Source of the DNA: an uncultured Acidimicrobiia bacterium
GTDB taxonomy: Bacteria > Acidobacteriota > Terriglobia > Versatilivoradales > Versatilivoraceae
Assembly (NCBI GenBank): GCA_963786955.1
Contig: CAWBAT010000005.1
Coordinates: 1,164,127-1,228,126 of the forward strand
Direction of reading: 5' to 3'
Length of the DNA stretch: 64,000 nt
Below the pieces are notes generated by a model. The model had not been told where the DNA came from. It searched no databases and saw nothing but the letters and a program-made list of their open reading frames with translations. Shown piece by piece: positions 1,938 to 14,649 of this stretch. Numbering within the stretch: position 1 is the first letter of the stretch; every line of letters starts with the position of its first letter. The position numbers and the translations under genes are program-made.

Positions 1938-2735
1938 TTACTCAATCCTCTCTAATTCAAACTCCTCCCGGCCACTGACTTTCAAAACGATGGCTGCTGA
2001 TCCGCAATGGACAGAGATTTCCAAATAACCCGAGCTCCCGAAGATCGTGAAGGGCGTTCTTGTTTCGGCTTCCGCATAGGAACTCAAATGCTGTCGAATC
2101 TCGTGCCCGGCAATGCGAAGCACAAACCTGCCCACCGGTTCCGGGAAGTCTTTTGTCGTTAGGTTCGTGATGAGGTTGCCGAACTTGTCTATCCGCAGAA
2201 TCGTACCCAGGACATGCTGGCCCATTCGTTTCGGCAGGGGTAATTTCAGGGTCAATAAATCTTGGATTCGGGGCCCGAATTCGGAGGGAGGTGTTCCTTG
2301 GGAGAGCCATCCAGCAACGGGCGCGAAGATGTCCCTTCCGTGAAAAGTGCGACTCAGTTGCTTCAGAAAGAAACGGTCTTGAATCAAATGATAGATCCGC
2401 ACGTCTTTTTCCTGTTCCAAAGCCGGAGAGAGGAGGCCATTATCGGGTCCGACGAAAAAATAATCCTCTGTCTGAACTAGTAAAGGTCGACGTGAACTTC
2501 CTACCCCGGGATCGACCACCCCAACATGGATGGTGCCTTTGGGAAAAAAGCGAAAACTGGAACTGAGAGCGAGAGCACCGGCGAGAATATCTTGTGAAGC
2601 GATTCCGTGAGTGATGTCAACAATTTGGCAATCCCGGTGAATGTTGAGAATAACCCCCTTCATAATGCCGACGTAGGGATCCTCTAGGCCATAGTCCGTG
2701 GTCAATGTAATCAATGGAATCCCAACGTTCTGCAC
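1938..2735 (-). CDS. SAM hydroxide adenosyltransferase family protein (DUF62; fluorinase/chlorinase-like SAM hydrolase)
   Basis: N-terminus LITLTTDYGLEDPYVGIMKGVIL and overall 265 aa length match the DUF62 family. Confidence 0.75.
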   Translation of the reverse strand: MQNVGIPLITLTTDYGLEDPYVGIMKGVILNIHRDCQIVDITHGIASQDILAGALALSSSFRFFPKGTIHVGVVDPGVGSSRRPLLVQTEDYFFVGPDNGLLSPALEQEKDVRIYHLIQDRFFLKQLSRTFHGRDIFAPVAGWLSQGTPPSEFGPRIQDLLTLKLPLPKRMGQHVLGTILRIDKFGNLITNLTTKDFPEPVGRFVLRIAGHEIRQHLSSYAEAETRTPFTIFGSSGYLEISVHCGSAAIVLKVSGREEFELERIE

Positions 2736-2805
2736 GAACCCACTCCCCGCACAACCGCCAGCATGAAGTTACTTCATGAGCCGGCATCAATCTATAGGAC
2801 TTCTG

Positions 2806-3792
2806 CTATCTTGTATCATTTGCCAACGAAAGGATTTTTTTTAGTTCCCCCTCATTGACTTTCAAAAGATCAATCCTGGTCAGCCGAGTTGTCAGCTCCA
2901 CCCAATTTCGGTCCGCCTCAAAAACTGTTCTGAAGATAGGGAGCGATTCAGCAAGATGTCCTGAATTCGCTAAGCCGATTGCGTGCCAGTATTTCATCTC
3001 GATATTTTCAGGATTCAGGGCCTCAGCCGCGCTGTATTCGCGGAGTGCTCCCGCAAGATCACTTTTTTCTACAGCCAGGTCACCGGAGTTCATGTGCTCA
3101 TAAGCCTGATGAATTCTCACCAGGCGCCGCAGTTCCTTAAGGGGTTCGGGGTGATCTTCGACCCGTAAATCTATTTTTCTGTCAAGCCACGGCTTGCCAC
3201 TCGATTTGCCGCTGACAACCAGGATTGCTGCGGACTGTTTTCCTCGAATATCCCCTCCAACTGCTTGTGCAGCTTCTAGCGCAGCTAGCATTCGATCTGA
3301 CAATTCACCTTGTGCCTGGCGATAGGCAGATGCCATGGCGGGCCAGATCTTGTCGTTTAACATAAGGTTTGCTTGCACGGAAAATTGCACTCCGCTTTCA
3401 TGGCCGGCTGCGGGGATACATCGGGATCCAGTGTGGACAGCGACAGTACCCAGGGCGTCGATCATTGCGACTTGGCGAACAGCACGACCGGAATCTACGG
3501 CCAGTAATGCTTCCAGCGCTTGCCTGGCTGTCTTGCCTCCACGCATCAGTTCCAAGCCCAGAAGGCCATAGGATTGATCGACAAAGGACTGTGTGGCAAC
3601 GGCTCCTACTCCGGCTTCTGCCCAGGGCACAAGGGATCCGACGGAAAACCAATGGGATTGGACGGCAACGCCAAGATCACCATTTATCGGGTTTCTGGCA
3701 ACAATGGAATAGGTATGTATGGGCCGGGTCTCGGCAAAGGCGCTAACGAAAGCCAGCAGCCAGCCGACCGTGAACAATGATTTGCGAAGCAT
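2806..3792 (-). CDS. Secreted DUF1028 (Ntn-hydrolase-like) protein with C-terminal TPR-like region
   Basis: Signal peptide MLRKSLFTVGWLLAFVSAFA. DUF1028-type N-terminus (TYSIVARNPINGDLGVAVQSHWFSVGS). An ATG with AGAGGAG Shine-Dalgarno is chosen over the upstream TTG at 3837. Confidence 0.65.
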   Translation of the reverse strand: MLRKSLFTVGWLLAFVSAFAETRPIHTYSIVARNPINGDLGVAVQSHWFSVGSLVPWAEAGVGAVATQSFVDQSYGLLGLELMRGGKTARQALEALLAVDSGRAVRQVAMIDALGTVAVHTGSRCIPAAGHESGVQFSVQANLMLNDKIWPAMASAYRQAQGELSDRMLAALEAAQAVGGDIRGKQSAAILVVSGKSSGKPWLDRKIDLRVEDHPEPLKELRRLVRIHQAYEHMNSGDLAVEKSDLAGALREYSAAEALNPENIEMKYWHAIGLANSGHLAESLPIFRTVFEADRNWVELTTRLTRIDLLKVNEGELKKILSLANDTR

Positions 3793-3890
3793 AGAGACTC
3801 CTCTTGCGGCGGCTCTGGTAATTCTAGTCTTCTTCAAGGGCGGATAATATTTGTGATCAAACTGATGAATTCAAGAACTATGCAGAAACC

Positions 3891-5543
3891 TTACCCCAAG
3901 TTCCCTTTTTTTAACTCTTCGGCCAAATAATCGGTGGCTCGCCAGGCCAAAGCCAAAATCGTCAGTGTGGGATTTTTTTCGGTAGCTGCGGGAAAGGCAC
4001 TTCCATCGACAACGAATAAGTTCTTCACATCGTGCATCTGGCAGAATCCATTGAGTGCCGATTGCTTGGGATCACTTCCCATGCGGCAAGTACCATGCTC
4101 GTGAATAGCCTTCCCTGGCTGATCCACAGTTCCTCGCTTGTAACCGATTAATTCTGCTTTGGCTGAATGCATCACCTGTTCGGCCGTGTCGTACATTTCT
4201 TCCAACATCTTTCGCTCATTGTCGCCAATCGAAAACACGATCTTGGGGAGCGGAACTCCATATGCATCGACGGGCGTCCCTTCCACGGTGATGTGGTTAT
4301 CGGCGCGGGGCAAGACTTCTCCGTAGGGGTGCATTGCGATCCAGGCCGGATAGCGCCGCTTGATCTCTTTCTTGAAGTCTGAACCAAAGCCCGGCAGCTC
4401 CGTTGCATAATGGCTGGCCCCAGGCTGACAACCAATCCCCCAGAATTGGGCGCCAAAACCGCGCAGATAGTCTCTGGGTTTGCCGCGATGGTTGAACCGC
4501 GGCATATAGAGATGCTCTCCTCCGATCCCGTCATCGTTGCTCGACGGAAAACCATAGAGGTCAGGAAGGAAACCGTGAACATGAAACCGTACCTGCTCGC
4601 AAAGGTATTTCCCGATAACTTCTGAGCTGTTTCCGATTCCGTTCGGATATTGACGGGATTTGGAATTTAAGAGGATTCGCGTGGAGTCGATGCACGACGC
4701 CCCCAGTACGACAACTTTGCCTTGTGCCCGGAATTCCTCTTTGGTATGGCGGTCAAAATACTGTACAGAACCGGCCCGGCCCCTTTCATTGGGAAGGATT
4801 CTTGCAACGACAGCGTTGGTTTGCAGGGTGAGATTTCCAGTCTCGAGGGCGTAGGGGATCAAATGATCAGCAGAACAAAAGAAGGAGGCTGTATCACAAC
4901 CCTTCCCACAGGCCCCACAATAGTGGCATGGTGGAAACCCACGATGGGGCTGGGTCAGCACTGCCCGTCGACCCGAAACCATCGGGATTCCGAGTTGATG
5001 AGCCGATCGCTTCAGGAGGAATTCTCCACAACGCATTCGCGGAGGAGGCATGTGGTAGCGGCTCCCAGGGAGGACATCGGAATCATCATTACCACCGCAC
5101 ACTCCGATGAGCTGATCAACCTTGTCATAGTAAGGTGCAATATCTTTATAGGAAATGGGCCAGGGAATTTCCCAGCCGTCGCGTTCGGCAGCCTGAAAGT
5201 CCAGGTCCCCATATCGGAGAGACACTCTCCCCCAGATGTTTGTTTTCCCTCCGAGTCCCCAGACTCGAGTTAAGTCAAACGGCTTACCCGGAGGCGTAAA
5301 ATAAGGTTGCTCTTGACGGCTCAAGAGGAAGTCGGGAGGATGCAGGCCGCGCTTCTCACGTTCACGGGCCTCATCCGGCCAAACATGCGTCCAGTATCCC
5401 TCACGCTTGAAACGCTCACCCGCGTCCAGCATCAGGACTTTGGCACCTTGGCGCGTCAAATTCCAGGCGGCTATCCCGCCAGAGGCGCCGGAACCGATGA
5501 CTACAACGTCATACATGACCTGGTTGGGAACTAAATCTTGCAT
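3891..5543 (-). CDS. GMC-family FAD-dependent oxidoreductase
   Basis: N-terminal Rossmann FAD motif [13 protein letters not shown]. 550 aa GMC architecture with conserved C-terminal HxxGTCRMG block (HEHGTCRMG). Confidence 0.85.
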
Positions 5544-6049
5544 GGGGATCTAAGTTAATATATAGAGACTGACACAATCTACAATCAGAAAAGAAACCTA
5601 CAAAGTGCGAACAATTCTAAGCTGTTGGAAAGGGAAGAACAAGCGGAAGTGAATGTGGTTTGAAAGATCGTGGCTGGCGCACTCGTGTGTTTTTTGCATG
5701 ACTGCGAAGAGTACACTGGTTGAAATTTTAAAGGCTTAAAGTTGATCCAGCTGGAAATTCTATCTTCTAAAAGTTAGGTGGTAATTTTGCTATGGACCCT
5801 CTGCCCTCCTATTGCGCCTTCCCGCAGACATGCACAAAACACATGGGTGCAACACTGGCCGTTTTCCATATTATGTTAAGGTATAATGTTTGATATTGGC
5901 ATCGGGCAAAACTGCCCGAAAACTCATGTTATCAGGGGAATCCTTCCTGTTAATCAATGGTTGGGCCATCCGAGTACTCTCGGGCTGAAGCCGAGCATAG
6001 CCGTAGGTTTCAATTGCCGCTGGCTTGCTCCTCGGTTACCATCGAAGGC

Positions 6050-6361
6050 ATGACGTTGATCCAAGCAATTCGCGCAAAGGTTTTATCGGGTGCTTTTGAA
6101 TTCTCGCAACACGCAGTTGACCAGACCATCCTACGACATATTAGCGTTCACGAGATCCGAGAAGCTATCAACGTGGGACAGGTGATCGAGGATTACCCGA
6201 ACGACAAGTATGGTCCCAGTTGCCTGATCTTGGGATTCACCCAGGCAGGACGGCCGATTCATGTCCAGTGCAGTTATGCCTCTCGCCTGTTGGTGAAAGT
6301 CATCACGACCTACCAACCCGATCCGAATGAGTGGGTCGAATACAAACAACGGAGAAAATAA
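6050..6361 (+). CDS. DUF4258-family toxin-like protein (putative toxin of a TA-like module)
   Basis: About 104 aa from an internal ATG. DUF4258-like core (FSQHAVDQTILRHISVHEIREAINVGQVIEDYPNDKYGPSCLILGF). A partner gene begins 1 nt after its stop. Confidence 0.6.
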   Translation: MTLIQAIRAKVLSGAFEFSQHAVDQTILRHISVHEIREAINVGQVIEDYPNDKYGPSCLILGFTQAGRPIHVQCSYASRLLVKVITTYQPDPNEWVEYKQRRK

Positions 6362-6362
6362 C

Positions 6363-6599
6363 ATGCCTGTTGATACGTCGGAAGAGACTTTTGTAGAACA
6401 GAAAGTAACCTACACCCTGGAAGTGCAAGGGCGTTTTATTATCATTGAGCATGTGCCCGCGCGCGTTTCGCTTCGCACAAGTGAACGATTCTTTTCTCCC
6501 GAGACGGTGGAGTGTCTCCAGAGGATTGTTTGGGAGCAAGGACCGCCCAGCCGTGTTATTGAAACCCCGGTGTTTGAGTATCCAGGCGTCATGGCCTAA
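6363..6599 (+). CDS. MqsA/YgiT-type zinc-ribbon-like antitoxin candidate (Cys ligands lost, no HTH domain)
   Basis: Pattern TYTLEVQGRFIIIEHVPARVSLRTSERFFSPETVECLQRI matches the YgiT-type zinc finger (T.Y..G....IE.VPA..C..CGE.F...ET...L..I). The CxxC pairs are replaced by Ser/Thr. The gene is tightly coupled to the upstream one. Confidence 0.5.
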   Translation: MPVDTSEETFVEQKVTYTLEVQGRFIIIEHVPARVSLRTSERFFSPETVECLQRIVWEQGPPSRVIETPVFEYPGVMA

Positions 6600-6674
6600 C
6601 CACGGCATCACCCGACGCAAAACCGCGGCGGCGGGTGATGCCTCAGTCGTTCCGCCACAGAGGAGAGGATACTT

Positions 6675-7241
6675 TTGTTGGCAATTGTGAGTGACAACCT
6701 TGTCGTTGCCCAGCCGATCTCCGGCGGTTTTAGCTGGACACTCGCCTCGCGCATTTGCCAGATGATCACCAAGGCTGAGGCCCAGTTTGGCGCTCGGGAC
6801 CGGTCGTTCACCGTGTTGGGGGTTGAGTTCAGGAATGGAGTTCCGCAAGTTTGGTTCCCCGGTAACTGCGGACATGTCGTAGTCCAACTCGGTCTATCTG
6901 CGATGCAAGACCCGAACCGAGCGTTGTTTCAACTCGCTCACGAGTGTGTGCATCTTCTGGATCCCGCACCAGGAGCGACCAATAATCTCGAAGAAGGCGT
7001 CGCCACCCATTTTTCACTTGAGTTTATGCAAGCCGAACTTGGGTTAACTTATTCGACAGGCGACGCGAAGTATGACAGCGCGTGCAGTCTTGTGCGGTTG
7101 CTGATTTCGACGAAGAGTGATTCCGTCAGAGAACTTCGACGTTTACACGGCCCTCTACGTGGCATTACGACTCAACAGATTTCAGGGATTTGCCCAAGTT
7201 TGAACGCAGGAACTGCCAGCCAGCTAGCGAACCCCTTTTAG
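6675..7241 (+). CDS. HExxH zinc-metallopeptidase-like protein (ImmA/IrrE, COG2856-like)
   Basis: TTG start 6 nt after an AGGAGAGGA Shine-Dalgarno. The motif AHECVHLL resembles the HEXXH-LL of ImmA/IrrE-type peptidases. 188 aa. Confidence 0.45.
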   Translation: MLAIVSDNLVVAQPISGGFSWTLASRICQMITKAEAQFGARDRSFTVLGVEFRNGVPQVWFPGNCGHVVVQLGLSAMQDPNRALFQLAHECVHLLDPAPGATNNLEEGVATHFSLEFMQAELGLTYSTGDAKYDSACSLVRLLISTKSDSVRELRRLHGPLRGITTQQISGICPSLNAGTASQLANPF

Positions 7242-7359
7242 CGATGCCGGCCGAGCGAGGCGCTGCACCTGAACGGGGCCGCTATACTGGTTTCGCGCGA
7301 CATCAAGTTCTTGCTGCGGCCCCGGGAGCTTGGTCGTTAGAAAGATAAAAAAAGATCGT

Positions 7360-8085
7360 ATGGATAAAGAACACATCCTTTCTGAAATCAGACGTACGAC
7401 CGAGGAAAACAGAAACAGTCCACTAGGTATCGCCAGGTTTGAGAAGGAAACTGGAATAAAAGTGTGGGATTGGAGAGGAAAGTATTGGACTAGATGGGCT
7501 GATGCACTTGCAGAAGCTGGGTACAGCAACCCTAATGAGATGCAAACCGCTTACCCGGATGAATTCTTAATTGAGAAGCTCATAGAGCTAATCCAGGAAC
7601 TTGGTCACTTCCCTACAACAACCGAGCGCAGACTCAAGGGTCATCAAGACAAGAACTTCCCAACTCATAACACATTTTCAAGATTCGGGGGCAAAGCAGA
7701 CTTGATAGAGGCTGTTCTGAAGTATTGCGATACTCATGACAAAGATGCTGAAATCGTTGCAGCCTGCAAGGTAGCCGCTTCCACCGGAAAACTTCAGCTA
7801 CGAGATAGAGCAGGACCAGAACCAATCGAATTAGGTTTTGTTTATCTGATGAAATCAGGCAAATATTTCAAGATAGGCCGAACCAATTGCGCGGAAAGAC
7901 GCGAATTTGAGCTCCGAATCCTGCTACCTGAGAAACTTGAATTGGTTCATAAGATTAAAACTGATGATCCTTGTGGAATTGAAAAATATTGGCACGATCG
8001 CTTTAAAGACAGCCGCAAAAGTGGAGAGTGGTTTGACCTTTCGCCCAGTGACGTCAAAGCCTTCAAGCGACGGAAGACGATGTAG
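7360..8085 (+). CDS. T5orf172 (GIY-YIG-like) domain nuclease with two N-terminal homing-endonuclease-associated repeats
   Basis: C-terminus GFVYLMKSGKYFKIGRTNCAERREFELRIL...KYWHDRFKDSRKSGEWFDL fits T5orf172. Two N-terminal repeats end in the F(G)xW..AL.EAG motif. The gene is markedly more AT-rich than its surroundings. Confidence 0.65.
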   Translation: MDKEHILSEIRRTTEENRNSPLGIARFEKETGIKVWDWRGKYWTRWADALAEAGYSNPNEMQTAYPDEFLIEKLIELIQELGHFPTTTERRLKGHQDKNFPTHNTFSRFGGKADLIEAVLKYCDTHDKDAEIVAACKVAASTGKLQLRDRAGPEPIELGFVYLMKSGKYFKIGRTNCAERREFELRILLPEKLELVHKIKTDDPCGIEKYWHDRFKDSRKSGEWFDLSPSDVKAFKRRKTM

Positions 8086-8276
8086 AACTGCCTAACGCCA
8101 TAGGCTGCACACTACGTCCACCGACCCCTTGTCCTCCATCATTTAAGGGCTGCCCCCTCCCCCCCCGGCCCTCTTGCAAAATTGGGACTTTCAAGGGATC
8201 ATGTGCTTCCTTAGATAGAAATAGAAACAGATAGAAACATGGCCCACATTATTCCGGGCGGGAAGGAATTCACCGA

Positions 8277-9302
8277 ATGAGTGGAAGGAAAACCCTGGGA
8301 GTTGTCTTGTTCCAACTTGGAGGTCCGGATTCTCTGGACTCCATTGAACCTTTTCTTCTCAATCTATTTCGAGATCCCGACATCATTGATTTCCCCTTTG
8401 CCAAGATTGCCCGCGAACCGTTGGCGAGGTTAATCTCGTCCTCCCGAGCAAAAAGAGTGAGGAATCATTATGCCAAGATCGGTGGCAAGTCTCCGATCCT
8501 GGAATTTACGAAATTGCAGGCACGAGCCCTAGAGGCGGAACTGCAGACGGTTTGCGATGCAAAGGTGCATATTGCGATGCGATACTGGCACCCTCTTACG
8601 AAAGAGGCGGTTCGTTCTGTGGAGCAACAGTTGCCGGAGGAAGTTGTATTGTTACCCCTTTATCCACAGTATTCCAAGACGACCACGGGCAGTAGCTTAA
8701 ACGAATGGGAACGTCAGACCCAAGTTTCTCCTATTGGCCGGATCCCGACTCGAACGGTTCGTGAATTTTACTCCTACCCGGGCTACCTCAGAGCCATTAC
8801 GAGCAGGATCAATGAAAGCTTGACCCGCTTTCCGCTTACGGAAGAAGTCCATTTTGTTTTTAGTGCTCACAGTCTTCCAGTCAGCGTGATCGAAGGCGGA
8901 GATCCTTATCGGGACCAGATCGAAAAGACCGTAGATCTGGTTCTGGAATGCGGCGGGTGGAGCTTTTCCCACACACTTTGTTATCAAAGCAAGGTGGGGG
9001 CGAGCAAATGGCTGCAGCCCTCCTTGCACGACACCATTCATCAGCTTGGGATGAAAAAGGTCAGAAATGTTTTGGTCATACCGATTGCCTTTGTCTCCGA
9101 TCATGTCGAGACTCTTAGTGAAATCGAACATGAAGCCCGGGAAGAGGCGGCTCATCACGGAATCCTGCAATTTGAAATGATGCGAGGACTCAATGATTCT
9201 CCTGAGTTTATTCAGGCTCTTGCCAAACTCGTGCTCAGCGAGTCAATGGATGCAAGTGCAAGAGATTTGGATCGAAAGGCGGTCAGGAGTTTTACCGGCT
9301 GA
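8277..9302 (+). CDS. hemH: Ferrochelatase
   Basis: N-terminus GVVLFQLGGPDSLDSIEPFLLNLF and 341 aa length match ferrochelatase. GGAAGGA Shine-Dalgarno 10 nt upstream. Confidence 0.9.
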   Translation: MSGRKTLGVVLFQLGGPDSLDSIEPFLLNLFRDPDIIDFPFAKIAREPLARLISSSRAKRVRNHYAKIGGKSPILEFTKLQARALEAELQTVCDAKVHIAMRYWHPLTKEAVRSVEQQLPEEVVLLPLYPQYSKTTTGSSLNEWERQTQVSPIGRIPTRTVREFYSYPGYLRAITSRINESLTRFPLTEEVHFVFSAHSLPVSVIEGGDPYRDQIEKTVDLVLECGGWSFSHTLCYQSKVGASKWLQPSLHDTIHQLGMKKVRNVLVIPIAFVSDHVETLSEIEHEAREEAAHHGILQFEMMRGLNDSPEFIQALAKLVLSESMDASARDLDRKAVRSFTG

Positions 9303-9415
9303 GTTACAGACACGGGCAGTTTAGGGCTAAAAGAAAACCATATTCCTTCGACAACAGTACGCACTTTCCCTCTAATTGCTCAGGTTATTGCCTCAAAGCC
9401 TGGGGGCAATTGCAC

Positions 9416-9444
9416 CTTGACGTTCTGAATTCTGAATGATAGAT
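9416..9444 (+). promoter_or_regulatory. Candidate sigma70-type promoter for the act-cox operon, with a direct repeat in the spacer
   Basis: TTGACG, a 17-nt spacer and TAGATT about 70 nt upstream of actA. The spacer contains the tandem repeat TTCTGAATTCTGAA. Confidence 0.3.
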
Positions 9445-9512
9445 TCACGCCTCAACTTTAGTAGGCTCCGGTGAGTCAGCCCTTATTTATGAGCCGGATA
9501 GAATAGTCTCAC

Positions 9513-10163
9513 GTGTCACAGATCTTTCATCGCAGCACCAATACAATTTCACGAGTCACCATTTTTGGGGCGATCTTCATTATCGCTGCACTCTTGACTG
9601 TGGCGCTCATGATTAATCGTTCCGGATACGTTACACAAGCCGACGTCCCTCGCGAGCAACCTGTACCTTTCAGCCACCAGCACCACGTGGGAGGAATTGG
9701 GATCGATTGTCGTTATTGTCACACGACTGTTGAAATTTCCCATTCCGCTAATATTCCGTCTACAAAGATTTGCATGAACTGTCATTCCCAAATATGGACG
9801 ACAAGTCCAACTCTCGAGCCCGTTCGTGAAAGCTTTCGCAAAGACAAATCTATTCCCTGGATTCGCGTTCACGATTTGCCGGATTACGCCTATTTCAACC
9901 ATAGCATTCACGTGAACAAAGGCGTTGGATGTTCAACCTGCCATGGGCGCGTGGATCGCATGCCGCTGGTTTGGCAACATGCCTCACTCCAGATGGAATG
10001 GTGTCTGGATTGCCATCGTCAGCCGGAAAAATATGTGCGACCTCGTGAAGAGGTGTTTGATATGGAGTACCAGCCGCCTGCAGACCAAATTGAGTTGGGC
10101 AGGAGACTCGTGAAGGAATACAAAATCCAAAGCTTAACACACTGTTCCACTTGCCACCGATGA
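9513..10163 (+). CDS. actA: Alternative complex III pentaheme cytochrome c subunit ActA
   Basis: Five CxxCH motifs (CRYCH, CMNCH, CSTCH, CLDCH, CSTCH). N-terminal transmembrane anchor. First gene of the act operon. Confidence 0.85.
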   Translation: MSQIFHRSTNTISRVTIFGAIFIIAALLTVALMINRSGYVTQADVPREQPVPFSHQHHVGGIGIDCRYCHTTVEISHSANIPSTKICMNCHSQIWTTSPTLEPVRESFRKDKSIPWIRVHDLPDYAYFNHSIHVNKGVGCSTCHGRVDRMPLVWQHASLQMEWCLDCHRQPEKYVRPREEVFDMEYQPPADQIELGRRLVKEYKIQSLTHCSTCHR

Positions 10164-13100
10164 CAAGAAACCACAGTCTTATAGACCTGGCTTCCGTCCG
10201 GTCGAAATTGAATCAGACCCAAGGACAAGCGTATTGGCGAAGCCTGGAAGAATTGGCAGACACCCCTGGATTTCAGGAATACCTGTATCGAGAATTCCCG
10301 CAGAACGTCGATCAGTGGATCGATCCGGTTGGCCGCCGCCGTTTCCTTCAATTGATGGGTGCCTCCCTTGCCTTGGCAGGCTTGACAGGCTGCACCAAGC
10401 AACCCGCTGAACACATTATGCCCTATGTCAAGGCTCCCGAAGAAATCGTGCCCGGCAAACCGTTGTTCTTTGCCACCGCCCGGCCTCATATGGGGTTTAC
10501 TGAAGGGCTGCTCGTTGAAAGCCATATGGGACGCCCCACCAAGATCGAAGGCAATCCTGAACACCCTGCCAGTCTTGGATCCACAGACGTGCTCTCGCAG
10601 GCTTCTATTCTGACGCTTTACGATCCGGATCGCTCCCAAGCGGTCACACAATACGGAGAAATTCGCTCCTACCCATCCTTTCTTGGCGAAATGAGGAATA
10701 CGGTTTCACTCCTTAAGGGGAGCCAAGGGGCGGGCCTCCGAATTCTGACAGAATCCACTACCTCGCCTTCACTGGCGGCCCAAATCAAAGACCTATTGGC
10801 CCTTTATCCCCTAGCTAGATGGCACCAATATGACGCTGTGAGTCGTGATATGGCTCGCAAAGGGGCCCTCATGGCATTCGGGGAGCACCTCGATACACGT
10901 TATGATTTTTCCAAAGCGAATGTAGTGCTTTCTCTCGATGCAGACTTCCTGACAGATAATCCCGGACGTCTGCGGTATACGCGCGATTTTGTCTCTCGGC
11001 GACGTGTTCGCGAAGGCCAATTCGAGATGAATCGCCTCTACGTTGTTGAGCCCACGCCCACCAACACCGGATCGATGGCGGACCATCGTCTGCCTATGAG
11101 CGCTGGAGACGTTGAGAAATTTGCCTGGGCGCTTGTTCAGGAATTAGGCATCCCGGTTCAAAAGAAGAATTTAGAGGGAGCGCCCGGCGCTGCCTGGATC
11201 GCTCCGCTTGCAAAGGATTTGCGACTAAACTCGGGGAAATCGATTGTCATTCCAGGAGAACATCAGTCCCCGACAGTTCATCTCTTGACTCACGCCATGA
11301 ACCAGTTTCTCGGGAATATCGACAGTACTGTTTTTCATACCGATCCCGTGGAAGCCGATCCTACCGACCAATTCGCCTCGTTGCGCGATCTCGTGCGCTC
11401 GATGGAAGCAGGAAGTGTTGATACATTGCTCATTCTCGGGGGCAATCCCGTCTATACGACGCCCGCCGACTTAAATTTTGCGGACGCCCTAACCAAAGTA
11501 AAACTGCGAATTCATTTGGGCCTATACAACGATGAAACAGCATTCCTCTGCCATTGGCACATCCCAGAAGCCCATTTCCTTGAGTCCTGGAGCGACGGGC
11601 GGGCATACGATGGTACGCTTAGTATTTTACAGCCGTTGATTGCTCCTCTCTATGATGGCAAAACGTCACACGAATTGCTCGCTGCTTTCACGACCAGGCC
11701 CGACCGATCCAGTTATGAAATTCTGCGAGATTATTGGAGGAGAAATTGGCCAGGCGCCGCTGTTCCAAAAGACACAAGGCAATCCAAAGTGCCGTCCACT
11801 CAGGCGGAGGGGTTCGATCATTTTGAGCGGCAATGGCGGCAAGCGATCCACGACGGGTTTATTGCCGGAACGGCTTTGCCCGCGAAGAAGACTTCGATGG
11901 ACGCCGGCCTGGTAAATCAACTGCAGCCGACCGCAATTTCCAGCAATCAAGCCAACAGCCAACTTGAGATCATTTTCCGTCCAGATCCGCACATTTTCGA
12001 CGGTCATTTCGCCAATAATGGCTGGCTGCAAGAATTACCCAAACCTCATACCCGGCTCACTTGGGATAATGCGGCTCTCGTGAGCCCAGCTACCGCACAG
12101 AAGCTGCGACTGAATAATGAAGAGCTGGTTGAATTGAGTTACCAGGGACGTAAGGTTGAAGCGGCCGTATGGATTTTGCCCGGTCAGAGTCCGAATTCAG
12201 TCACCCTTCATTTGGGATATGGCCGGACGTGGACAGGGCGAGTAGGTAAAGGGGCCGGATTCAATGCCTACTTGCTCCGCACCACGGATACAGCGTCGTT
12301 TGGTTCTGGCTTAGAGATTCGGAAAACCGGCAAGCACTACCCATTGGCCTGTACACAGCATCATTCCAGCATGGAAGGGCGTAACCTTGTCCGTGCCGGA
12401 ACGCTTGAGGAGTTCAAGCAGAATCCTGATTTCGTTCAGGAGATGGGAGAGAATCGTCCCAACAGTCTTTCCGTGTACCCGGCATTCAAATACGAGGGAA
12501 ACGCCTGGGGGATGGTGATCGACTTAAATGCATGCACAGGCTGCAACGCCTGTACTATCGCCTGCCAGTCCGAAAATAACATTCCGGTTGTCGGGAAAGA
12601 ACAAGTCGTCATTGGTCGCGAGATGCACTGGATTCGGGTGGATCGTTACTTCAAAGGCGAACTGGACAACCCCGAAACCTATAACCAACCTGTTCCTTGC
12701 ATGCAGTGTGAAAATGCTCCGTGCGAAGTCGTTTGCCCTGTGGGTGCCACTTCGCATAGCCCGGAAGGGCTAAATGATATGACTTATAACCGTTGTGTGG
12801 GTACGCGTTATTGTCTCAATAATTGCCCTTACAAGGTGAGACGCTTCAATTTCCTGCTCTATTCGGATTTTGAAACGCCAAGCCTGAAGCTGGGTCGAAA
12901 TCCGGACGTCACCGTTCGATCGCGTGGAGTCATGGAGAAATGCACGTACTGCGTGCAAAGGATTAATGTGGCCAAAATCAATGCGGAAAAGGGAAATCGG
13001 CCCATTCGCGATGGAGAAATTGTGACCGCTTGCGAAGCCGTGTGTCCTGCTAAAGCCATTACCTTCGGGAATCTCAATGACCCGGCGAGTCGTGTGACTC

Positions 13101-13210
13101 GCCTCAAAGCTGAAAAACTGAATTATGGCCTGTTGGCCGATCTCAATACCCGGCCCAGAACGACGTATCTGGGACGATTGAGGAATCCGAATCCGGAGAT
13201 GATCCTCTAA
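10160..13210 (+). CDS. actB: Alternative complex III subunit ActB (molybdopterin-oxidoreductase-like B1 fused to 4Fe-4S ferredoxin-like B2)
   Basis: Twin-arginine signal RRRFLQLMGASLALAGLTG. About 1016 aa. C-terminal polyferredoxin Cys clusters (CTGCNACTIAC, CMQCENAPCEVVCP). ATGA start/stop overlap with actA. Confidence 0.9.
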   Translation: MTRNHSLIDLASVRSKLNQTQGQAYWRSLEELADTPGFQEYLYREFPQNVDQWIDPVGRRRFLQLMGASLALAGLTGCTKQPAEHIMPYVKAPEEIVPGKPLFFATARPHMGFTEGLLVESHMGRPTKIEGNPEHPASLGSTDVLSQASILTLYDPDRSQAVTQYGEIRSYPSFLGEMRNTVSLLKGSQGAGLRILTESTTSPSLAAQIKDLLALYPLARWHQYDAVSRDMARKGALMAFGEHLDTRYDFSKANVVLSLDADFLTDNPGRLRYTRDFVSRRRVREGQFEMNRLYVVEPTPTNTGSMADHRLPMSAGDVEKFAWALVQELGIPVQKKNLEGAPGAAWIAPLAKDLRLNSGKSIVIPGEHQSPTVHLLTHAMNQFLGNIDSTVFHTDPVEADPTDQFASLRDLVRSMEAGSVDTLLILGGNPVYTTPADLNFADALTKVKLRIHLGLYNDETAFLCHWHIPEAHFLESWSDGRAYDGTLSILQPLIAPLYDGKTSHELLAAFTTRPDRSSYEILRDYWRRNWPGAAVPKDTRQSKVPSTQAEGFDHFERQWRQAIHDGFIAGTALPAKKTSMDAGLVNQLQPTAISSNQANSQLEIIFRPDPHIFDGHFANNGWLQELPKPHTRLTWDNAALVSPATAQKLRLNNEELVELSYQGRKVEAAVWILPGQSPNSVTLHLGYGRTWTGRVGKGAGFNAYLLRTTDTASFGSGLEIRKTGKHYPLACTQHHSSMEGRNLVRAGTLEEFKQNPDFVQEMGENRPNSLSVYPAFKYEGNAWGMVIDLNACTGCNACTIACQSENNIPVVGKEQVVIGREMHWIRVDRYFKGELDNPETYNQPVPCMQCENAPCEVVCPVGATSHSPEGLNDMTYNRCVGTRYCLNNCPYKVRRFNFLLYSDFETPSLKLGRNPDVTVRSRGVMEKCTYCVQRINVAKINAEKGNRPIRDGEIVTACEAVCPAKAITFGNLNDPASRVTRLKAEKLNYGLLADLNTRPRTTYLGRLRNPNPEMIL

Positions 13211-13263
13211 AGAGGCTTCAAGTTCCTATGGGCAGAAGCGCCTGAATTATTTCACCTGAACTC

Positions 13264-14649
13264 ATGAATCAAGATCAATCCAGTCCGACAACCACCCATT
13301 TGACAGAGACGGCACCTATCATTGAGCCGGGCTATACTTTTGCCTCCGTGACGGACAAGATCAGCGCTGTTGTCTTGACTCATCGGACCCCGCGAGGCTG
13401 GTATTTTGGTTTCGGAATCGGCTTCATCCTGGTCATGCTGCTCCTCACGACGATCGGCCGGCTTCTGGTTGTCGGAACTGGCATTTGGGGCGTAACGAAT
13501 CCTGTTGGTTGGGGATTTGACATCATCAATTTTGTCTGGTGGATTGGCATCGGACATGCCGGCACTCTGATCTCGGCCATCCTCTTGCTTCTGCGTCAGG
13601 AATGGCGGACTTCGATTAATCGGTTTGCGGAGGCCATGACTCTCTTTGCAGTTGCCTGTGCGGCACTCTATCCCTTGTTGCACACCGGCAGACCTTGGTT
13701 GGCCATCTACTGGCTCTTCCCCTATCCCAACACCATGGGACTCTGGCCGCAATTCCGCAGTCCACTCATCTGGGACGTTTTCGCGGTTTCGACGTACGCA
13801 ACAGTCTCCTTGCTCTTTTGGTTTGTTGGATTGATCCCGGACCTGGCTACACTCCGAGATCGTTCCCCCAACCGTTTTGGACGAATCCTGTTTGGGATTT
13901 TGGCCATGGGATGGCGCGGGTCAGCCCGCCACTGGACTCGTTATGAAGCGGCCTATTTGCTTCTGGCGGGCTTATCTACCCCCCTTGTCCTATCGGTCCA
14001 CTCGATCGTTAGTTTTGACTTCGCGGTCTCCGTGATCCCGGGCTGGCATGCAACCATTTTCCCGCCCTACTTTGTTGCGGGCGCCGTTTTCGCGGGGTTT
14101 GCCATGGTGCTTATTTTGGCGATTCCCATTCGGAAATTCTACGGTTTGGAAGATTTCATTACCCTGCGGCATCTCGATAACATGGCCAAGATTCTTTTGG
14201 TGACGGGCCTGATCGTGTCTTACGGCTATATGATGGAAGCCTTTTTCGGCTGGTACAGTGCGAATCCTTACGAGAGTTATATGATCTTGAATCGGATGAA
14301 AGGTCCTTATGCCTTCTTTTACTGGGTATTGATTTTCTGCAATGTTGTGGCACCGCAAGTTTTTTGGTCGAAACGCATGCGGACAAACATTGCTGTGCTG
14401 TTTACCGTCTCCATTATTGTCAGCGTCGGAATGTGGCTGGAGCGCTTCATCATTGTCGTGACGAGCCTCAGTCGTGATTTCTTACCGTCGTCTTGGGGAA
14501 TGTACTATCCGACTCGCTGGGATTTTGGAATGTTCTTCGGAACCATCGGCCTGTTTGTCAGCCTTTTGTTTTTGTTCCTGCGCTTTCTACCGATGATCTC
14601 AATTTTTGAAATGCGCACGATTCTCCCGCAAGCAGAGGTCAAGGAATAG
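13264..14649 (+). CDS. actC: Alternative complex III NrfD/PsrC-like membrane subunit ActC
   Basis: 461 aa polytopic membrane protein with NrfD-like composition, in conserved act operon order. Confidence 0.9.

What the first reader, a model, noticed from the sequence alone, without database searches (positions are those of the whole stretch)
5544..8270. Low-GC islet with four genes: DUF4258 toxin, Cys-less Zn-ribbon partner, HExxH peptidase-like gene and T5orf172 nuclease
The islet lies between a GMC oxidoreductase and hemH and follows a ~400-bp AT-rich spacer. A DUF4258 gene is translationally coupled (1-nt gap) to a 78-aa MqsA/YgiT-like protein. A TTG-initiated 188-aa protein with an ImmA/IrrE-like HECVHLL motif follows. 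A visibly AT-rich gene then encodes two homing-endonuclease-associated repeats plus a T5orf172 (GIY-YIG-like) domain. Toxin-antitoxin pairs, COG2856 peptidases and T5orf172 nucleases each recur in phage-defence and abortive-infection loci. This particular four-gene combination is not a described system that I recognise.
Basis: partly seen in the sequence, partly recalled or inferred. Interest (0 to 1): 0.7.

Follow-up and report, generated by a model that had tools for sequence, protein, structure and literature searches.

The report
Three decayed integron cassettes, not one system
The four genes are real, but they are three unrelated mobile gene cassettes (a toxin-antitoxin pair, an uncharacterised zinc peptidase and a nuclease) that landed side by side in one strain, so there is no evidence of a new four-gene phage-defence system.

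Summary
All four genes exist as described: DUF4258 toxin, Cys-less YgiT-like partner 1 nt downstream, TTG-started HExxH protein, and T5orf172 nuclease. The "low-GC islet" does not hold: the segment has 0.500 GC, equal to the window mean, and only the nuclease gene is AT-rich.

Close relatives of this genome have hemH and the GMC oxidoreductase adjacent. The islet is therefore a strain-specific 2.5-kb insertion (window 5653-8160) in a variable intergenic spot.

The genes are not a system. Among 102 loci with the HExxH family and 92 with the T5orf172 family, only this genome holds both. DNA similarity to relatives falls into three separate blocks.

The closest relatives of the nuclease and peptidase genes sit in integron cassette arrays, flanked by covarying attC sites. 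A covariance model trained only on those sites gives its two best hits in the 64-kb window right after the antitoxin stop (26.5 bits, E 0.003) and the peptidase stop (13.5 bits, decayed). The nuclease gene keeps GTTAGAA and GCCTAAC cassette boundary boxes.

Best reading: a small, decaying integrase-less cassette cluster.

The HExxH protein is a single-domain gluzincin, closest in fold to M1 aminopeptidase catalytic domains, not demonstrably ImmA/IrrE. It is the one moderately interesting part.

The parts
5653..8160 (.). Strain-specific insertion (the true islet), replacing about 84 nt of the hemH-GMC intergenic region of close relatives
   Evidence: blastn of the window against relative L202 finds about 90% identity over 2076-5651 and 8171-14000 and nothing between. 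hemH and GMC lie 292-353 nt apart in L202, L203 and L204. L206 carries different cargo at the same spot.
5679..5850 (+). Long imperfect inverted repeat (28-nt arms, 116-nt spacer) at the left edge of the insertion; function unknown
   Evidence: the repeat finder pair I1. RNA fold z-score -4.4, with 0 of 200 shuffles as stable. Single copy in the window. No similarity in any fetched locus.
5960..5966 (+). GTTGGGC, a core-site-like (GTTRRRY) box 84 nt upstream of the toxin start; candidate 5' boundary of the toxin-antitoxin cassette (weak)
   Evidence: Motif marking only. No covariance-model hit ends here.
6050..6361 (+). DUF4258 toxin gene (103 aa from ATG 6050; the ORF is open from 5957)
   Evidence: Pfam PF14076, E 3e-22. 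DNA similarity to relatives starts at 6032. Relatives are 101-115 aa.
6363..6599 (+). 78-aa Cys-less YgiT/MqsA-N-type partner (putative antitoxin), 1 nt after the toxin stop
   Evidence: TIGR03831 at 20.2 bits, equal to its cut-off. At least 3572 homologues. Aligns with the CxxC..CxxC relative L097:6529-6762. DUF4258 lies directly upstream with a 1-nt gap in L197-L200.
6594..6655 (+). attC-like recombination site: R'' GCCTAAC (overlaps the stop codon), a 15-bp L''/L' stem with one mismatch, and a degenerate R' GTTCCGC
   Evidence: Best hit of covariance model R2 in the whole window on both strands: 26.5 bits, E 0.0028. Best hit of R1. PWM rank 1 of 127,952. ssDNA fold z -2.6.
6675..7241 (+). 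188-aa single-domain gluzincin (HExxH-x13-EEG), TTG start; an uncharacterised family
7250..7342 (+). Decayed attC remnant between the peptidase and nuclease genes, ending in the core-site box GTTAGAA (7336-7342)
   Evidence: Second-best hit of R2 in the window, but only 13.5 bits, E 1.1, with L pairs broken. PWM rank 3 of 127,952. Not a stable hairpin, z -0.1. Aligns with the canonical attC that follows the closest relative's gene in L085.
7360..8085 (+). 241-aa T5orf172/MUG113 (GIY-YIG superfamily) nuclease with an N-terminal helical DNA-binding region
8090..8160 (+). Truncated attC remnant: a perfect inverse core site GCCTAAC (8090-8096) 4 nt after the stop and an L''-like stretch; the 3' half is missing
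   Evidence: Same box at the same offset as in relatives. Homology with the L088 cassette ends here. No covariance-model hit and no hairpin.

Best explanation
The islet is a strain-specific insertion of about 2.5 kb (window 5653-8160) in the divergent hemH/GMC-oxidoreductase intergenic region. It consists of three independent integron-type gene cassettes in one orientation, with no integrase gene nearby. It is a small, decaying cluster of the CALIN/SALIN kind.

The three cassettes:
1. A DUF4258 (BECR-fold, presumably RNase) toxin translationally coupled to a Cys-less YgiT/MqsA-N-type antitoxin, followed by a still recognisable attC site.
2. A stand-alone single-domain gluzincin peptidase, followed by a decayed attC.
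3. A stand-alone T5orf172 (GIY-YIG) nuclease with helical DNA-binding repeats, bounded by GTTAGAA and GCCTAAC boxes, with a truncated attC.

Shown:
- the empty site in relatives;
- the three separate homology blocks;
- the absence of co-occurrence;
- canonical, covarying attC sites around the closest relatives of cassettes 2 and 3;
- one significant attC in the window.

Inferred:
- The cassettes were delivered by an integron integrase acting at a non-att genomic site, or are what is left of an array. The sites have since decayed, so the cassettes are probably no longer mobile.
- Each cassette acts on its own. The toxin-antitoxin pair acts as an addiction or abortive-infection module. The nuclease and peptidase may be small stand-alone conflict genes.
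For: EMPTY SITE
- GMC oxidoreductase orthologues (at least 90% aa identity) in L202, L203 and L204 sit 292-353 nt from hemH.
- blastn homology stops at 5651 and resumes at 8171.
- L206 has different cargo there.

INDEPENDENCE
- Only L001, this genome's own contig, holds both the HExxH and T5orf172 families, among 102 and 92 loci respectively.
- No shared neighbour cluster around T5orf172.
- Its 142 flanking ORFs hit 93 Pfam families, none in more than 2 ORFs, and include gyrA/B, TGT, PheRS and S9.
- HExxH neighbours are equally diverse.
- The toxin-antitoxin pair occurs alone elsewhere.
- DNA similarity falls in three blocks: 6032-6597, 6676-7096 and 7335-8096.
- GC is heterogeneous, 0.448 to 0.538.

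CASSETTE NATURE
- 12 of 83 T5orf172 genes have GTTRRRY upstream and RYYYAAC just after the stop, against about 0.14 expected. The boxes covary.
- attC-type hairpins of 59-94 nt follow the gene in L088, L097, L131, L141, L144 and L159.
- Model R1 finds 24 sites in related loci, 23 of them on the gene strand. They flank T5orf172 in L092, L095, L099, L146 and L147. They also flank the HExxH relatives in L085 and L086, and in L008.
- In the 32-site alignment 83% of cells are paired, against 25-40% when slid. 14 of 18 pairs have compensatory changes. One unpaired column sits in the L stem.
- Model R2, trained only on foreign loci, gives its two best window hits at 6594-6655 (26.5 bits, E 0.0028) and 7250-7334 (13.5 bits), each starting at or just after a stop codon on the + strand.
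- The PWM of the 5' half ranks them 1 and 3 of 127,952.

LITERATURE
- CALINs are common and may arise by insertion at secondary sites (PMC4889954).
- IntI inserts cassettes at non-att genomic sites; the resulting isolated cassettes are called SALINs (10.1101/2022.09.11.507474).
- Toxin-antitoxin modules are typical cassette cargo (PMC4889954).
Against: - Only one attC in the window is statistically significant. The second is sub-threshold (E 1.1) and does not fold (z -0.1). The third is only an R'' box. A strict CALIN call (at least 2 attC) is therefore not met.
- My covariance models are home-made from 12 to 32 sites, not IntegronFinder's attc_4 model, and their E-values are rough.
- No integrase was found, but the test was only a motif regex on the 64-kb window. 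The rest of the genome was not searched.
- Relatives of the toxin-antitoxin pair in L197-L200 show no clear attC, so that module is not always a cassette.
- The left boundary of the insertion carries an unexplained long inverted repeat, not an att-like site.
- The same intergenic spot holds non-cassette cargo in L206. A generic recombination hotspot could explain the location.
Confidence: 0.7

Rival explanations
1. A generic accessory or defence islet was built by unrelated insertions into a recombination hotspot. Integron machinery played no role in this genome. The cassette-boundary boxes came along with the genes from earlier hosts.
For: - The hemH-GMC spacer is hypervariable. It is empty in L202-L204 and holds a 410-aa gene without any Pfam hit in L206.
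- No attC hit in L206.
- Two of the three attC-like sites in the window are non-functional remnants.
- No integrase signature in the window.
- The left junction is not att-like.
Against: - The three modules are packed head-to-tail, each followed at its stop codon by an attC or attC remnant on the same strand, as in an array.
- A significant attC remains (E 0.0028).
- This rival differs from the best explanation only in how the block arrived.
Confidence: 0.2
2. The four genes form one cooperative anti-phage or abortive-infection system. For example, the peptidase senses infection and releases the toxin or the nuclease.
For: - The genes are co-oriented with tight spacing.
- Each gene class recurs in conflict systems.
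- HExxH relatives are sometimes embedded in type I R-M operons or next to TIR or Schlafen/AlbA_2 genes.
- An 85%-identical T5orf172 copy sits next to another DUF4258 pair in L089-L091.
Against: - No co-occurrence in about 190 loci.
- No PADLOC system match; the only hit is weak (PDC-S57, E 8e-4).
- The L089 pair is a different DUF4258 pair, in a different order, and is a separate cassette with its own attC.
- The three DNA blocks have separate histories.
- A hairpin/attC separates the toxin-antitoxin pair from the peptidase gene.
Confidence: 0.04
3. The T5orf172 gene is a free-standing homing endonuclease that inserted itself next to pre-existing genes. Its flanking inverted boxes are its own recognition half-sites.
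For: - T5orf172 genes are homing endonucleases in phages (PMC10448857).
- The gene is solitary, with unrelated neighbours that include essential genes.
- It is AT-rich.
- It is highly conserved across phyla.
- It occurs on 5 viral contigs.
Against: - The flanking boxes fit the integron GTTRRRY / RYYYAAC consensus.
- In relatives they are the ends of full 59-94-nt attC hairpins with covariation, shared with neighbouring unrelated cassettes.
- No conserved target sequence lies outside the boxes.
Confidence: 0.06

Closest known systems
Integron gene cassettes without integrase: CALIN (Cury et al. 2016, PMC4889954) and SALIN / attG insertions (Loot et al., 10.1101/2022.09.11.507474)
   Same: - Co-oriented short ORFs, each ending at an RYYYAAC box followed by an imperfect palindrome and GTTRRRY.
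- A toxin-antitoxin module and genes of unknown function as cargo.
- No integrase nearby.
- Located at a non-att chromosomal site.
- Closest homologues lie in real arrays.
   Different: - Only one attC passes significance; the others are decayed or truncated.
- The left end is a long unrelated inverted repeat.
- The attC model used was not the reference one.
MqsR/MqsA-type type II toxin-antitoxin modules; DUF4258 with an MqsA-like partner (Gerdes 2025, PMC11980606)
   Same: - Toxin gene first, and a small YgiT/MqsA-N-type partner immediately downstream.
- DUF4258-MqsA fusions are reported, which supports the pairing.
- DUF4258 has a BECR (RelE/ParE or colicin-like) fold.
   Different: - The partner has lost all four zinc-binding Cys.
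- At 78 aa it lacks the C-terminal HTH domain of MqsA.
- The toxin is DUF4258, not MqsR.
- The target and activity of DUF4258 are unknown (PMC11980606; 10.64898/2026.08.28.747851).
M1-family / thermolysin-like gluzincins (clan MA(E)); more distantly ImmA/IrrE/CapP (M78) and minigluzincins
   Same: - HExxH followed by a Glu in an 'EEG(V/L)A' segment, comparable to the M1 'NEGFA' segment.
- Invariant Tyr and Arg downstream.
   Different: - A 188-aa stand-alone domain without the N- and C-terminal domains of M1 enzymes.
- HExxH-to-Glu spacing of 13 rather than 18.
- No sequence-profile match to any Pfam family or PDB chain.
T5orf172 / MUG113 GIY-YIG nucleases, including phage homing endonucleases (Barth et al. 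2023, PMC10448857)
   Same: - Pfam domain match.
- Conserved VYL...KIG, Arg and Glu positions.
- Modular N-terminal DNA-binding repeats.
- Solitary and horizontally mobile.
   Different: Here, and in many relatives, the gene is carried as an integron cassette in bacterial chromosomes, not as a phage-borne homing gene. No target site is known.
BRiCs: integron cassettes that confer phage resistance (10.1101/2024.07.02.601719)
   Same: Small single- or two-gene cassettes of unknown function. That paper also describes homologues with pseudo-attC sites in small chromosomal defence islands.
   Different: None of the three cassettes here matches a tested BRiC or a PADLOC model. A defence role is untested.

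Membership tests
Integron cassette cluster (CALIN) | attC site with R''(RYYYAAC)/R'(GTTRRRY) boxes, an L''/L' stem and an extrahelical base, detected by a covariance model | tested here: met
   6594-6655 (+): R2 26.5 bits, E 0.0028, best hit in 128 kb searched. The model's structure is validated by covariation on 32 foreign sites.
Integron cassette cluster (CALIN) | At least two attC sites within 4 kb on the same strand | tested here: inconclusive
   The second site, 7250-7334, is the second-best hit but reaches only 13.5 bits, E 1.1, with a broken L stem. The third site is only the R'' box at 8090-8096. IntegronFinder's own model was not available.
Integron cassette cluster (CALIN) | No integron integrase nearby | tested here: inconclusive
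   No tyrosine-recombinase box II motif in any frame of at least 150 aa in the 64-kb window. This was a regex only, with no intI profile, and the rest of the genome was not searched.
Integron cassette cluster (CALIN) | Homologous genes occur as cassettes in real arrays | tested here: met
   attC sites flank T5orf172 in L088, L092, L095, L097, L099, L131, L146 and L147. They flank HExxH relatives in L085, L086 and L008. 23 of 24 hits are on the gene strand.
Type II toxin-antitoxin module, DUF4258 / MqsA-like | Toxin of the DUF4258 family | tested here: met
   PF14076, E 3e-22, 79 bits against a cut-off of 25.
Type II toxin-antitoxin module, DUF4258 / MqsA-like | Conserved adjacent small partner gene | tested here: met
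   1-nt gap in the window and in L197-L200. The partner family has at least 3572 members.
Type II toxin-antitoxin module, DUF4258 / MqsA-like | MqsA architecture: a zinc ribbon with four Cys plus a C-terminal HTH domain | tested here: not met
   None of the four zinc-ligand Cys is kept, in the window protein or in the 14 close homologues aligned; one relative keeps CxxC..CxxC. The protein is 78 aa with no HTH hit. Only the YgiT-type N-domain fold is retained.
Type II toxin-antitoxin module, DUF4258 / MqsA-like | Toxicity of the toxin and neutralisation by the partner | not testable with these tools
   Needs expression experiments. The activity of DUF4258 is listed as unknown in PMC11980606.
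ImmA/IrrE (COG2856, Peptidase_M78) | Profile match to PF06114 or COG2856 | tested here: not met
   No Pfam hit even at E up to 10. No NCBIfam, PHROG or PADLOC hit.
ImmA/IrrE (COG2856, Peptidase_M78) | Fold closest to IrrE, ImmA or CapP | tested here: inconclusive
ImmA/IrrE (COG2856, Peptidase_M78) | Adjacent HTH (XRE) partner gene | tested here: not met
   No HTH gene in the islet. No HTH family among the most frequent neighbours in 80 loci.
Gluzincin (clan MA(E), thermolysin/M1-like catalytic domain) | HExxH plus a downstream Glu ligand, conserved across the family | tested here: met
   H93, E106, E107 and G108 are invariant and H89 and E90 nearly so in 33 sequences.
Gluzincin (clan MA(E), thermolysin/M1-like catalytic domain) | Thermolysin-like catalytic fold | tested here: met
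Gluzincin (clan MA(E), thermolysin/M1-like catalytic domain) | Membership of the M1 family proper (GxMEN motif, N- and C-terminal domains) | tested here: not met
   A single 188-aa domain. No Peptidase_M1 Pfam hit. No PDB sequence hit.
T5orf172 / GIY-YIG nuclease | Domain profile match | tested here: met
   MUG113 at 53 bits (cut-off 22.3) and T5orf172 at 31.9 bits (cut-off 20).
T5orf172 / GIY-YIG nuclease | Conserved catalytic-core residues | tested here: met
   Invariant V161-Y162-L163, K171, G173, R181, E208, Y210 and W211 in 23 sequences. Assigning these to catalytic roles rests on general knowledge of GIY-YIG enzymes.
T5orf172 / GIY-YIG nuclease | GIY-YIG fold | tested here: inconclusive
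Described anti-phage defence systems (PADLOC-DB v2) | Match of the component proteins to a system model | tested here: not met
   The only hit is T5orf172 to PDC-S57 at E 8.4e-4, 17 bits. The other three proteins have no hit.

The most novel reading that the evidence does not exclude
The 188-aa stand-alone gluzincin represents a large, undescribed family: at least 1571 clusters at 50% identity, with no Pfam or PDB relative by sequence. It may work as a single-gene conflict (defence or anti-defence) protease. It travels as an integron cassette. In some lineages it is embedded in type I R-M operons between hsdM and a Schlafen/AlbA_2-HATPase gene, or sits next to TIR genes. The T5orf172 cassette could likewise be a one-gene defence nuclease.
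Probability: 0.2. Interest if true: 0.6.

Novelty: new member of a known kind. Interest (0 to 1): 0.3.

Why it matters
As a candidate new four-gene defence system, the finding does not hold up.

What remains is useful but modest.
- It is a worked example of how integron cassettes scatter into ordinary intergenic regions and decay. The result can look like a small operon and can mislead guilt-by-association reasoning.
- It shows that a very widespread T5orf172 nuclease gene (at least 577 metagenomic loci) and an uncharacterised single-domain zinc peptidase family are cassette cargo.

Integron cassettes are now known to be a reservoir of small phage-defence genes. The peptidase and nuclease are therefore reasonable candidates for functional screens, each on its own.

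Tried and rejected
1. Four-gene system: rejected by co-occurrence, neighbour clustering and Pfam censuses of neighbours.

2. A T5orf172 + DUF4258 association, suggested by L089-L091: rejected.
- The DUF4258 pair there is a different one (the 66-aa partner is unrelated), in the opposite order, and a separate cassette.
- At most 1 of 142 flanking ORFs is DUF4258.

4. Sequence-profile search of the PDB with the HExxH family: nothing significant.

5. Domain fusions of the HExxH family as a functional clue: the few long proteins have no informative Pfam domain.

6. An internal repeat in the T5orf172 N-terminus: BLASTP and hhalign are negative.

7. Known RNA families in the islet: one match (snoR66, 5875-5939) at E 0.45, far below its gathering score and taken as chance. 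The promoter and terminator scans were not above shuffles.

8. A strict regex for canonical attC in the window: no hit in the islet, because the R' boxes are degenerate.

9. RNAalifold on the attC alignments gave only the R stem or nothing. I derived the L stem with a column-pair dynamic programme and checked it by covariation.

10. attC after the toxin-antitoxin relatives in L197-L200: none evident.

11. The afdb50 fold library was unavailable.

12. A conserved target motif around T5orf172 anchored at the start or stop codon: none beyond the cassette boxes.


Full report
**1. What is in the sequence**

Between the GMC oxidoreductase (3891-5543, - strand) and ferrochelatase hemH (8277-9302, +) lie four + strand genes.

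- **DUF4258 gene.** PF14076, E 3e-22. It probably starts at ATG 6050. Relatives are 101-115 aa, and DNA similarity starts at 6032.
- **78-aa partner gene.** It starts at 6363, 1 nt after the toxin stop.
  - It matches TIGR03831 (YgiT-type zinc finger) exactly at the cut-off.
  - It belongs to a family of at least 3572 proteins. The 14 close members I aligned all lack the four zinc-ligand Cys.
  - One more distant relative (L097:6529-6762) keeps CxxC...CxxC at the aligned positions.
- **188-aa TTG-started ORF (6675-7241).** It is a real gene.
  - It has 211 homologues with the same N-terminus, and an invariant HExxH...EEG block plus Y133 and R155.
  - The exhaustive search finds 1571 clusters at 50% identity.
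- **T5orf172/MUG113 gene.**. Its true start is ATG 7360, giving 241 aa as in all 832 homologues.

The compositional part of the observation does not hold.
- The segment has 0.494-0.500 GC, the same as the window mean.
- The peptidase gene is above average (0.538).
- Only the nuclease gene (0.448, lowest 0.4% of same-size windows) and the native stub 5544-5652 (0.385) are low.

**2. The islet is acquired DNA in a variable spot**

Cluster-mates of the window's GMC oxidoreductase (at least 90% identity) gave access to close relatives.
- In L202 and L203/L204, hemH and the oxidoreductase gene are neighbours, 292-353 nt apart.
- blastn of the window against L202 gives about 90% identity over 2076-5651 and 8171-14000, and nothing between.
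- The true islet is therefore 5653-8160, replacing about 84 nt.
- A further relative, L206, carries different cargo at the same place: a 410-aa gene with no Pfam hit, plus a 71-aa ORF.

**3. The four genes are not a system**

I fetched 80 genomic loci with the HExxH family, 15 viral ones, and 80 metagenomic plus 5 viral loci with the T5orf172 family. I also fetched the contigs of the closest relatives.

- Profile searches of all ORFs find the HExxH family in 102 loci and the T5orf172 family in 92. Only L001, the window's own contig, has both.
- Clustering of neighbours gives no shared neighbour for T5orf172.
- A Pfam census of its 142 immediately flanking ORFs hits 93 families, none in more than 2 ORFs. 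These include gyrA, gyrB, tgt, pheT and rpsI.
- HExxH neighbours are also diverse.
  - The commonest is a Schlafen/AlbA_2 + HATPase_c_4 protein (6 of 149 flanking ORFs), then N6 methylases (3) and TIR (2).
  - In several Dehalococcoidia MAGs the gene is embedded in a type I R-M operon, in the order hsdM - HExxH - AlbA_2/HATPase - hsdS.
- The DUF4258/YgiT-like pair occurs with the same 1-nt spacing alone among housekeeping genes.
- At the DNA level the islet resolves into three blocks with different relatives: 6032-6597, 6676-7096 and 7335-8096.

**4. What the blocks are: integron cassettes**

While checking whether the T5orf172 gene carries a conserved target site, I found that the copies closest to the window's are bracketed by two boxes.
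- GTT[AG]GGC lies 19-27 nt before the ATG.
- GCC[TC]AAC lies 4-5 nt after the stop.
- The two boxes covary between loci.
- 12 of 83 genes have both generic boxes, against about 0.14 expected.

These are the integron core site (GTTRRRY) and inverse core site (RYYYAAC); that identification rests on established knowledge of attC sites.

In relatives the downstream box opens a 59-94-nt imperfect palindrome ending in GTTRRRY, that is an attC site. In L088 this is a classic 59-nt element, followed by a separate DUF4258 toxin-antitoxin cassette with its own site.

*Model R1.* I built it from 12 such sites.
- It finds 24 sites in related loci, 23 of them on the gene strand.
- New sites flank T5orf172 in L092, L095, L099, L146 and L147.
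- New sites also flank the closest HExxH relatives in L085 (72% identity) and L086 (69%), and the one in L008.

*Structure check.* On the 32-site alignment a column-pair dynamic programme recovers the textbook architecture: a 7-bp R stem and an 11-bp L stem interrupted by one unpaired column.
- 83% of cells are paired, against 25-40% when partners are slid.
- 14 of 18 pairs show compensatory changes.
- 0 of 500 shuffles reach the observed values.

*Model R2.* It contains no window sequence. I ran it with filters off over the whole window, both strands.
- Best hit: 6594-6655 (+), 26.5 bits, E 0.0028. Its R'' box overlaps the antitoxin's stop codon.
- Second-best hit: 7250-7334 (+), 13.5 bits, E 1.1, starting 9 nt after the peptidase stop.
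- A PWM of the 5' half of attC ranks these two positions 1 and 3 of 127,952.

*State of the three sites in the window.*
- The first folds like an attC (z -2.6).
- The second does not (z -0.1) and has a degenerate R'' box. It aligns with the canonical site of L085.
- After the nuclease gene only the perfect R'' box GCCTAAC (8090-8096) and an L''-like stretch remain, and homology to the L088 cassette ends exactly there.
- Upstream of the nuclease gene, GTTAGAA (7336-7342) sits at the usual offset, and homology to L092 begins at 7335.

No tyrosine-recombinase box II motif is present in the window (a weak test).

*Conclusion.* The islet is a three-cassette, integrase-less cluster with one good and two decayed attC sites. 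It resembles a CALIN but, strictly, has only one significant attC. Such elements are common. They can arise by integrase-mediated insertion at non-att genomic sites (PMC4889954; 10.1101/2022.09.11.507474).

**5. The individual cargo genes**

*Toxin-antitoxin pair.*
- DUF4258 is assigned to the BECR-fold RelE/ParE superfamily, or to its colicin-like branch. Its target is unknown.
- DUF4258-MqsA fusions are reported (PMC11980606; 10.64898/2026.08.28.747851). This fits a toxin-antitoxin pair.
- The partner here is only the zinc-less N-domain, without MqsA's HTH domain.

*Peptidase.*
- The AF2 model is very confident (pLDDT 96.7).
- Foldseek's IrrE top hit is marginal.
- The 'HECVH-x13-EEGVA' segment parallels the M1 'HExxH-x18-E / NEGFA' segment. 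This is an inference from the motifs; I did not inspect a residue-level superposition.
- It has no sequence relative in Pfam, NCBIfam, PHROGs, PADLOC or the PDB.
- It is almost always a stand-alone protein of about 190 aa.
- It is most likely an active zinc peptidase of unknown substrate.

*Nuclease.*
- The GIY-YIG-type residues are conserved.
- The model shows two N-terminal helical bundles with HTH-like matches and a core matching SLX1/HIGLE weakly.
- T5orf172 proteins are homing endonucleases in phages (PMC10448857). In this gene family the vehicle is the cassette.

**6. Verdict**

The interpretation as one novel system is not supported. The best explanation is a known kind of element, integron cassettes stranded in a chromosome, with new cargo members. 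Because cassettes of unknown function are a documented source of small defence genes (10.1101/2024.07.02.601719), a defence role for the peptidase or the nuclease on its own remains open but untested.

**7. Limits**
- ORF calling in the loci was naive.
- The genomic loci were retrieved through one conserved peptide pattern.
- Single-sequence searches for DUF4258 are insensitive: the L089 copy was missed.
- The covariance models are home-made with rough E-values.
- The genome outside the window was not searched for an integrase.

Noticed in passing
window 5679-5850: A long imperfect inverted repeat (28-nt arms, 86% complementary, 116-nt spacer) sits at the left edge of the insertion. Its RNA fold has a z-score of -4.4. 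It is single-copy in the window and has no similarity in any fetched locus. It is not attC-like. It could be a MITE remnant, a structured leader or the actual insertion junction.
   Followed up: partly
L206:2535-5000 (same hemH-GMC spacer in a related genome): A different insertion occupies the same intergenic spot: a 410-aa gene with no Pfam or PADLOC hit, plus a 71-aa ORF, and no attC hit. The spacer is a hotspot for strain-specific cargo.
   Followed up: partly
L054, L055, L057, L058 (about 4400-10000); also L048, L052, L060, L020: In Dehalococcoidia and other MAGs the HExxH gluzincin gene is embedded in a type I R-M operon: hsdM, then HExxH, then a 580-aa Schlafen/AlbA_2 + HATPase_c_4 protein, then hsdS. 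In L049, L070 and L077 a TIR-domain gene lies 7-78 nt upstream.
   Followed up: partly
P0391 (907 aa), P0439 (678 aa): A few proteins carry three or four tandem copies of the HExxH gluzincin domain and have no other Pfam domain.
   Followed up: no
T5orf172 family, loci L094-L178: This 241-aa nuclease is extremely widespread. It is more than 50% identical across Planctomycetota, Deltaproteobacteria, Nitrospinae, Actinobacteria and a MAG labelled Micrarchaeota. That is unusually high conservation for cassette cargo.
   Followed up: partly
L088-L091 (for example L089:898-2203): An 85%-identical copy of the T5orf172 cassette is followed by another, unrelated DUF4258 toxin cassette whose 66-aa partner is not YgiT-like. 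DUF4258 toxins therefore pair with more than one antitoxin type.
   Followed up: partly
window 8214-8240: A short tandem duplication (AGATAGAAAT/AGAAACAGATAGAAAC) lies in the hemH upstream region. Relative L202 lacks 16 of these bases.
   Followed up: no
window 9513-13210 and downstream: Alternative complex III-type genes (a multihaem cytochrome c, a 1019-aa Fe-S/molybdopterin-like subunit, and NrfD and ActD in relatives) follow hemH and are syntenic in all relatives. This is ordinary core genome.
   Followed up: no
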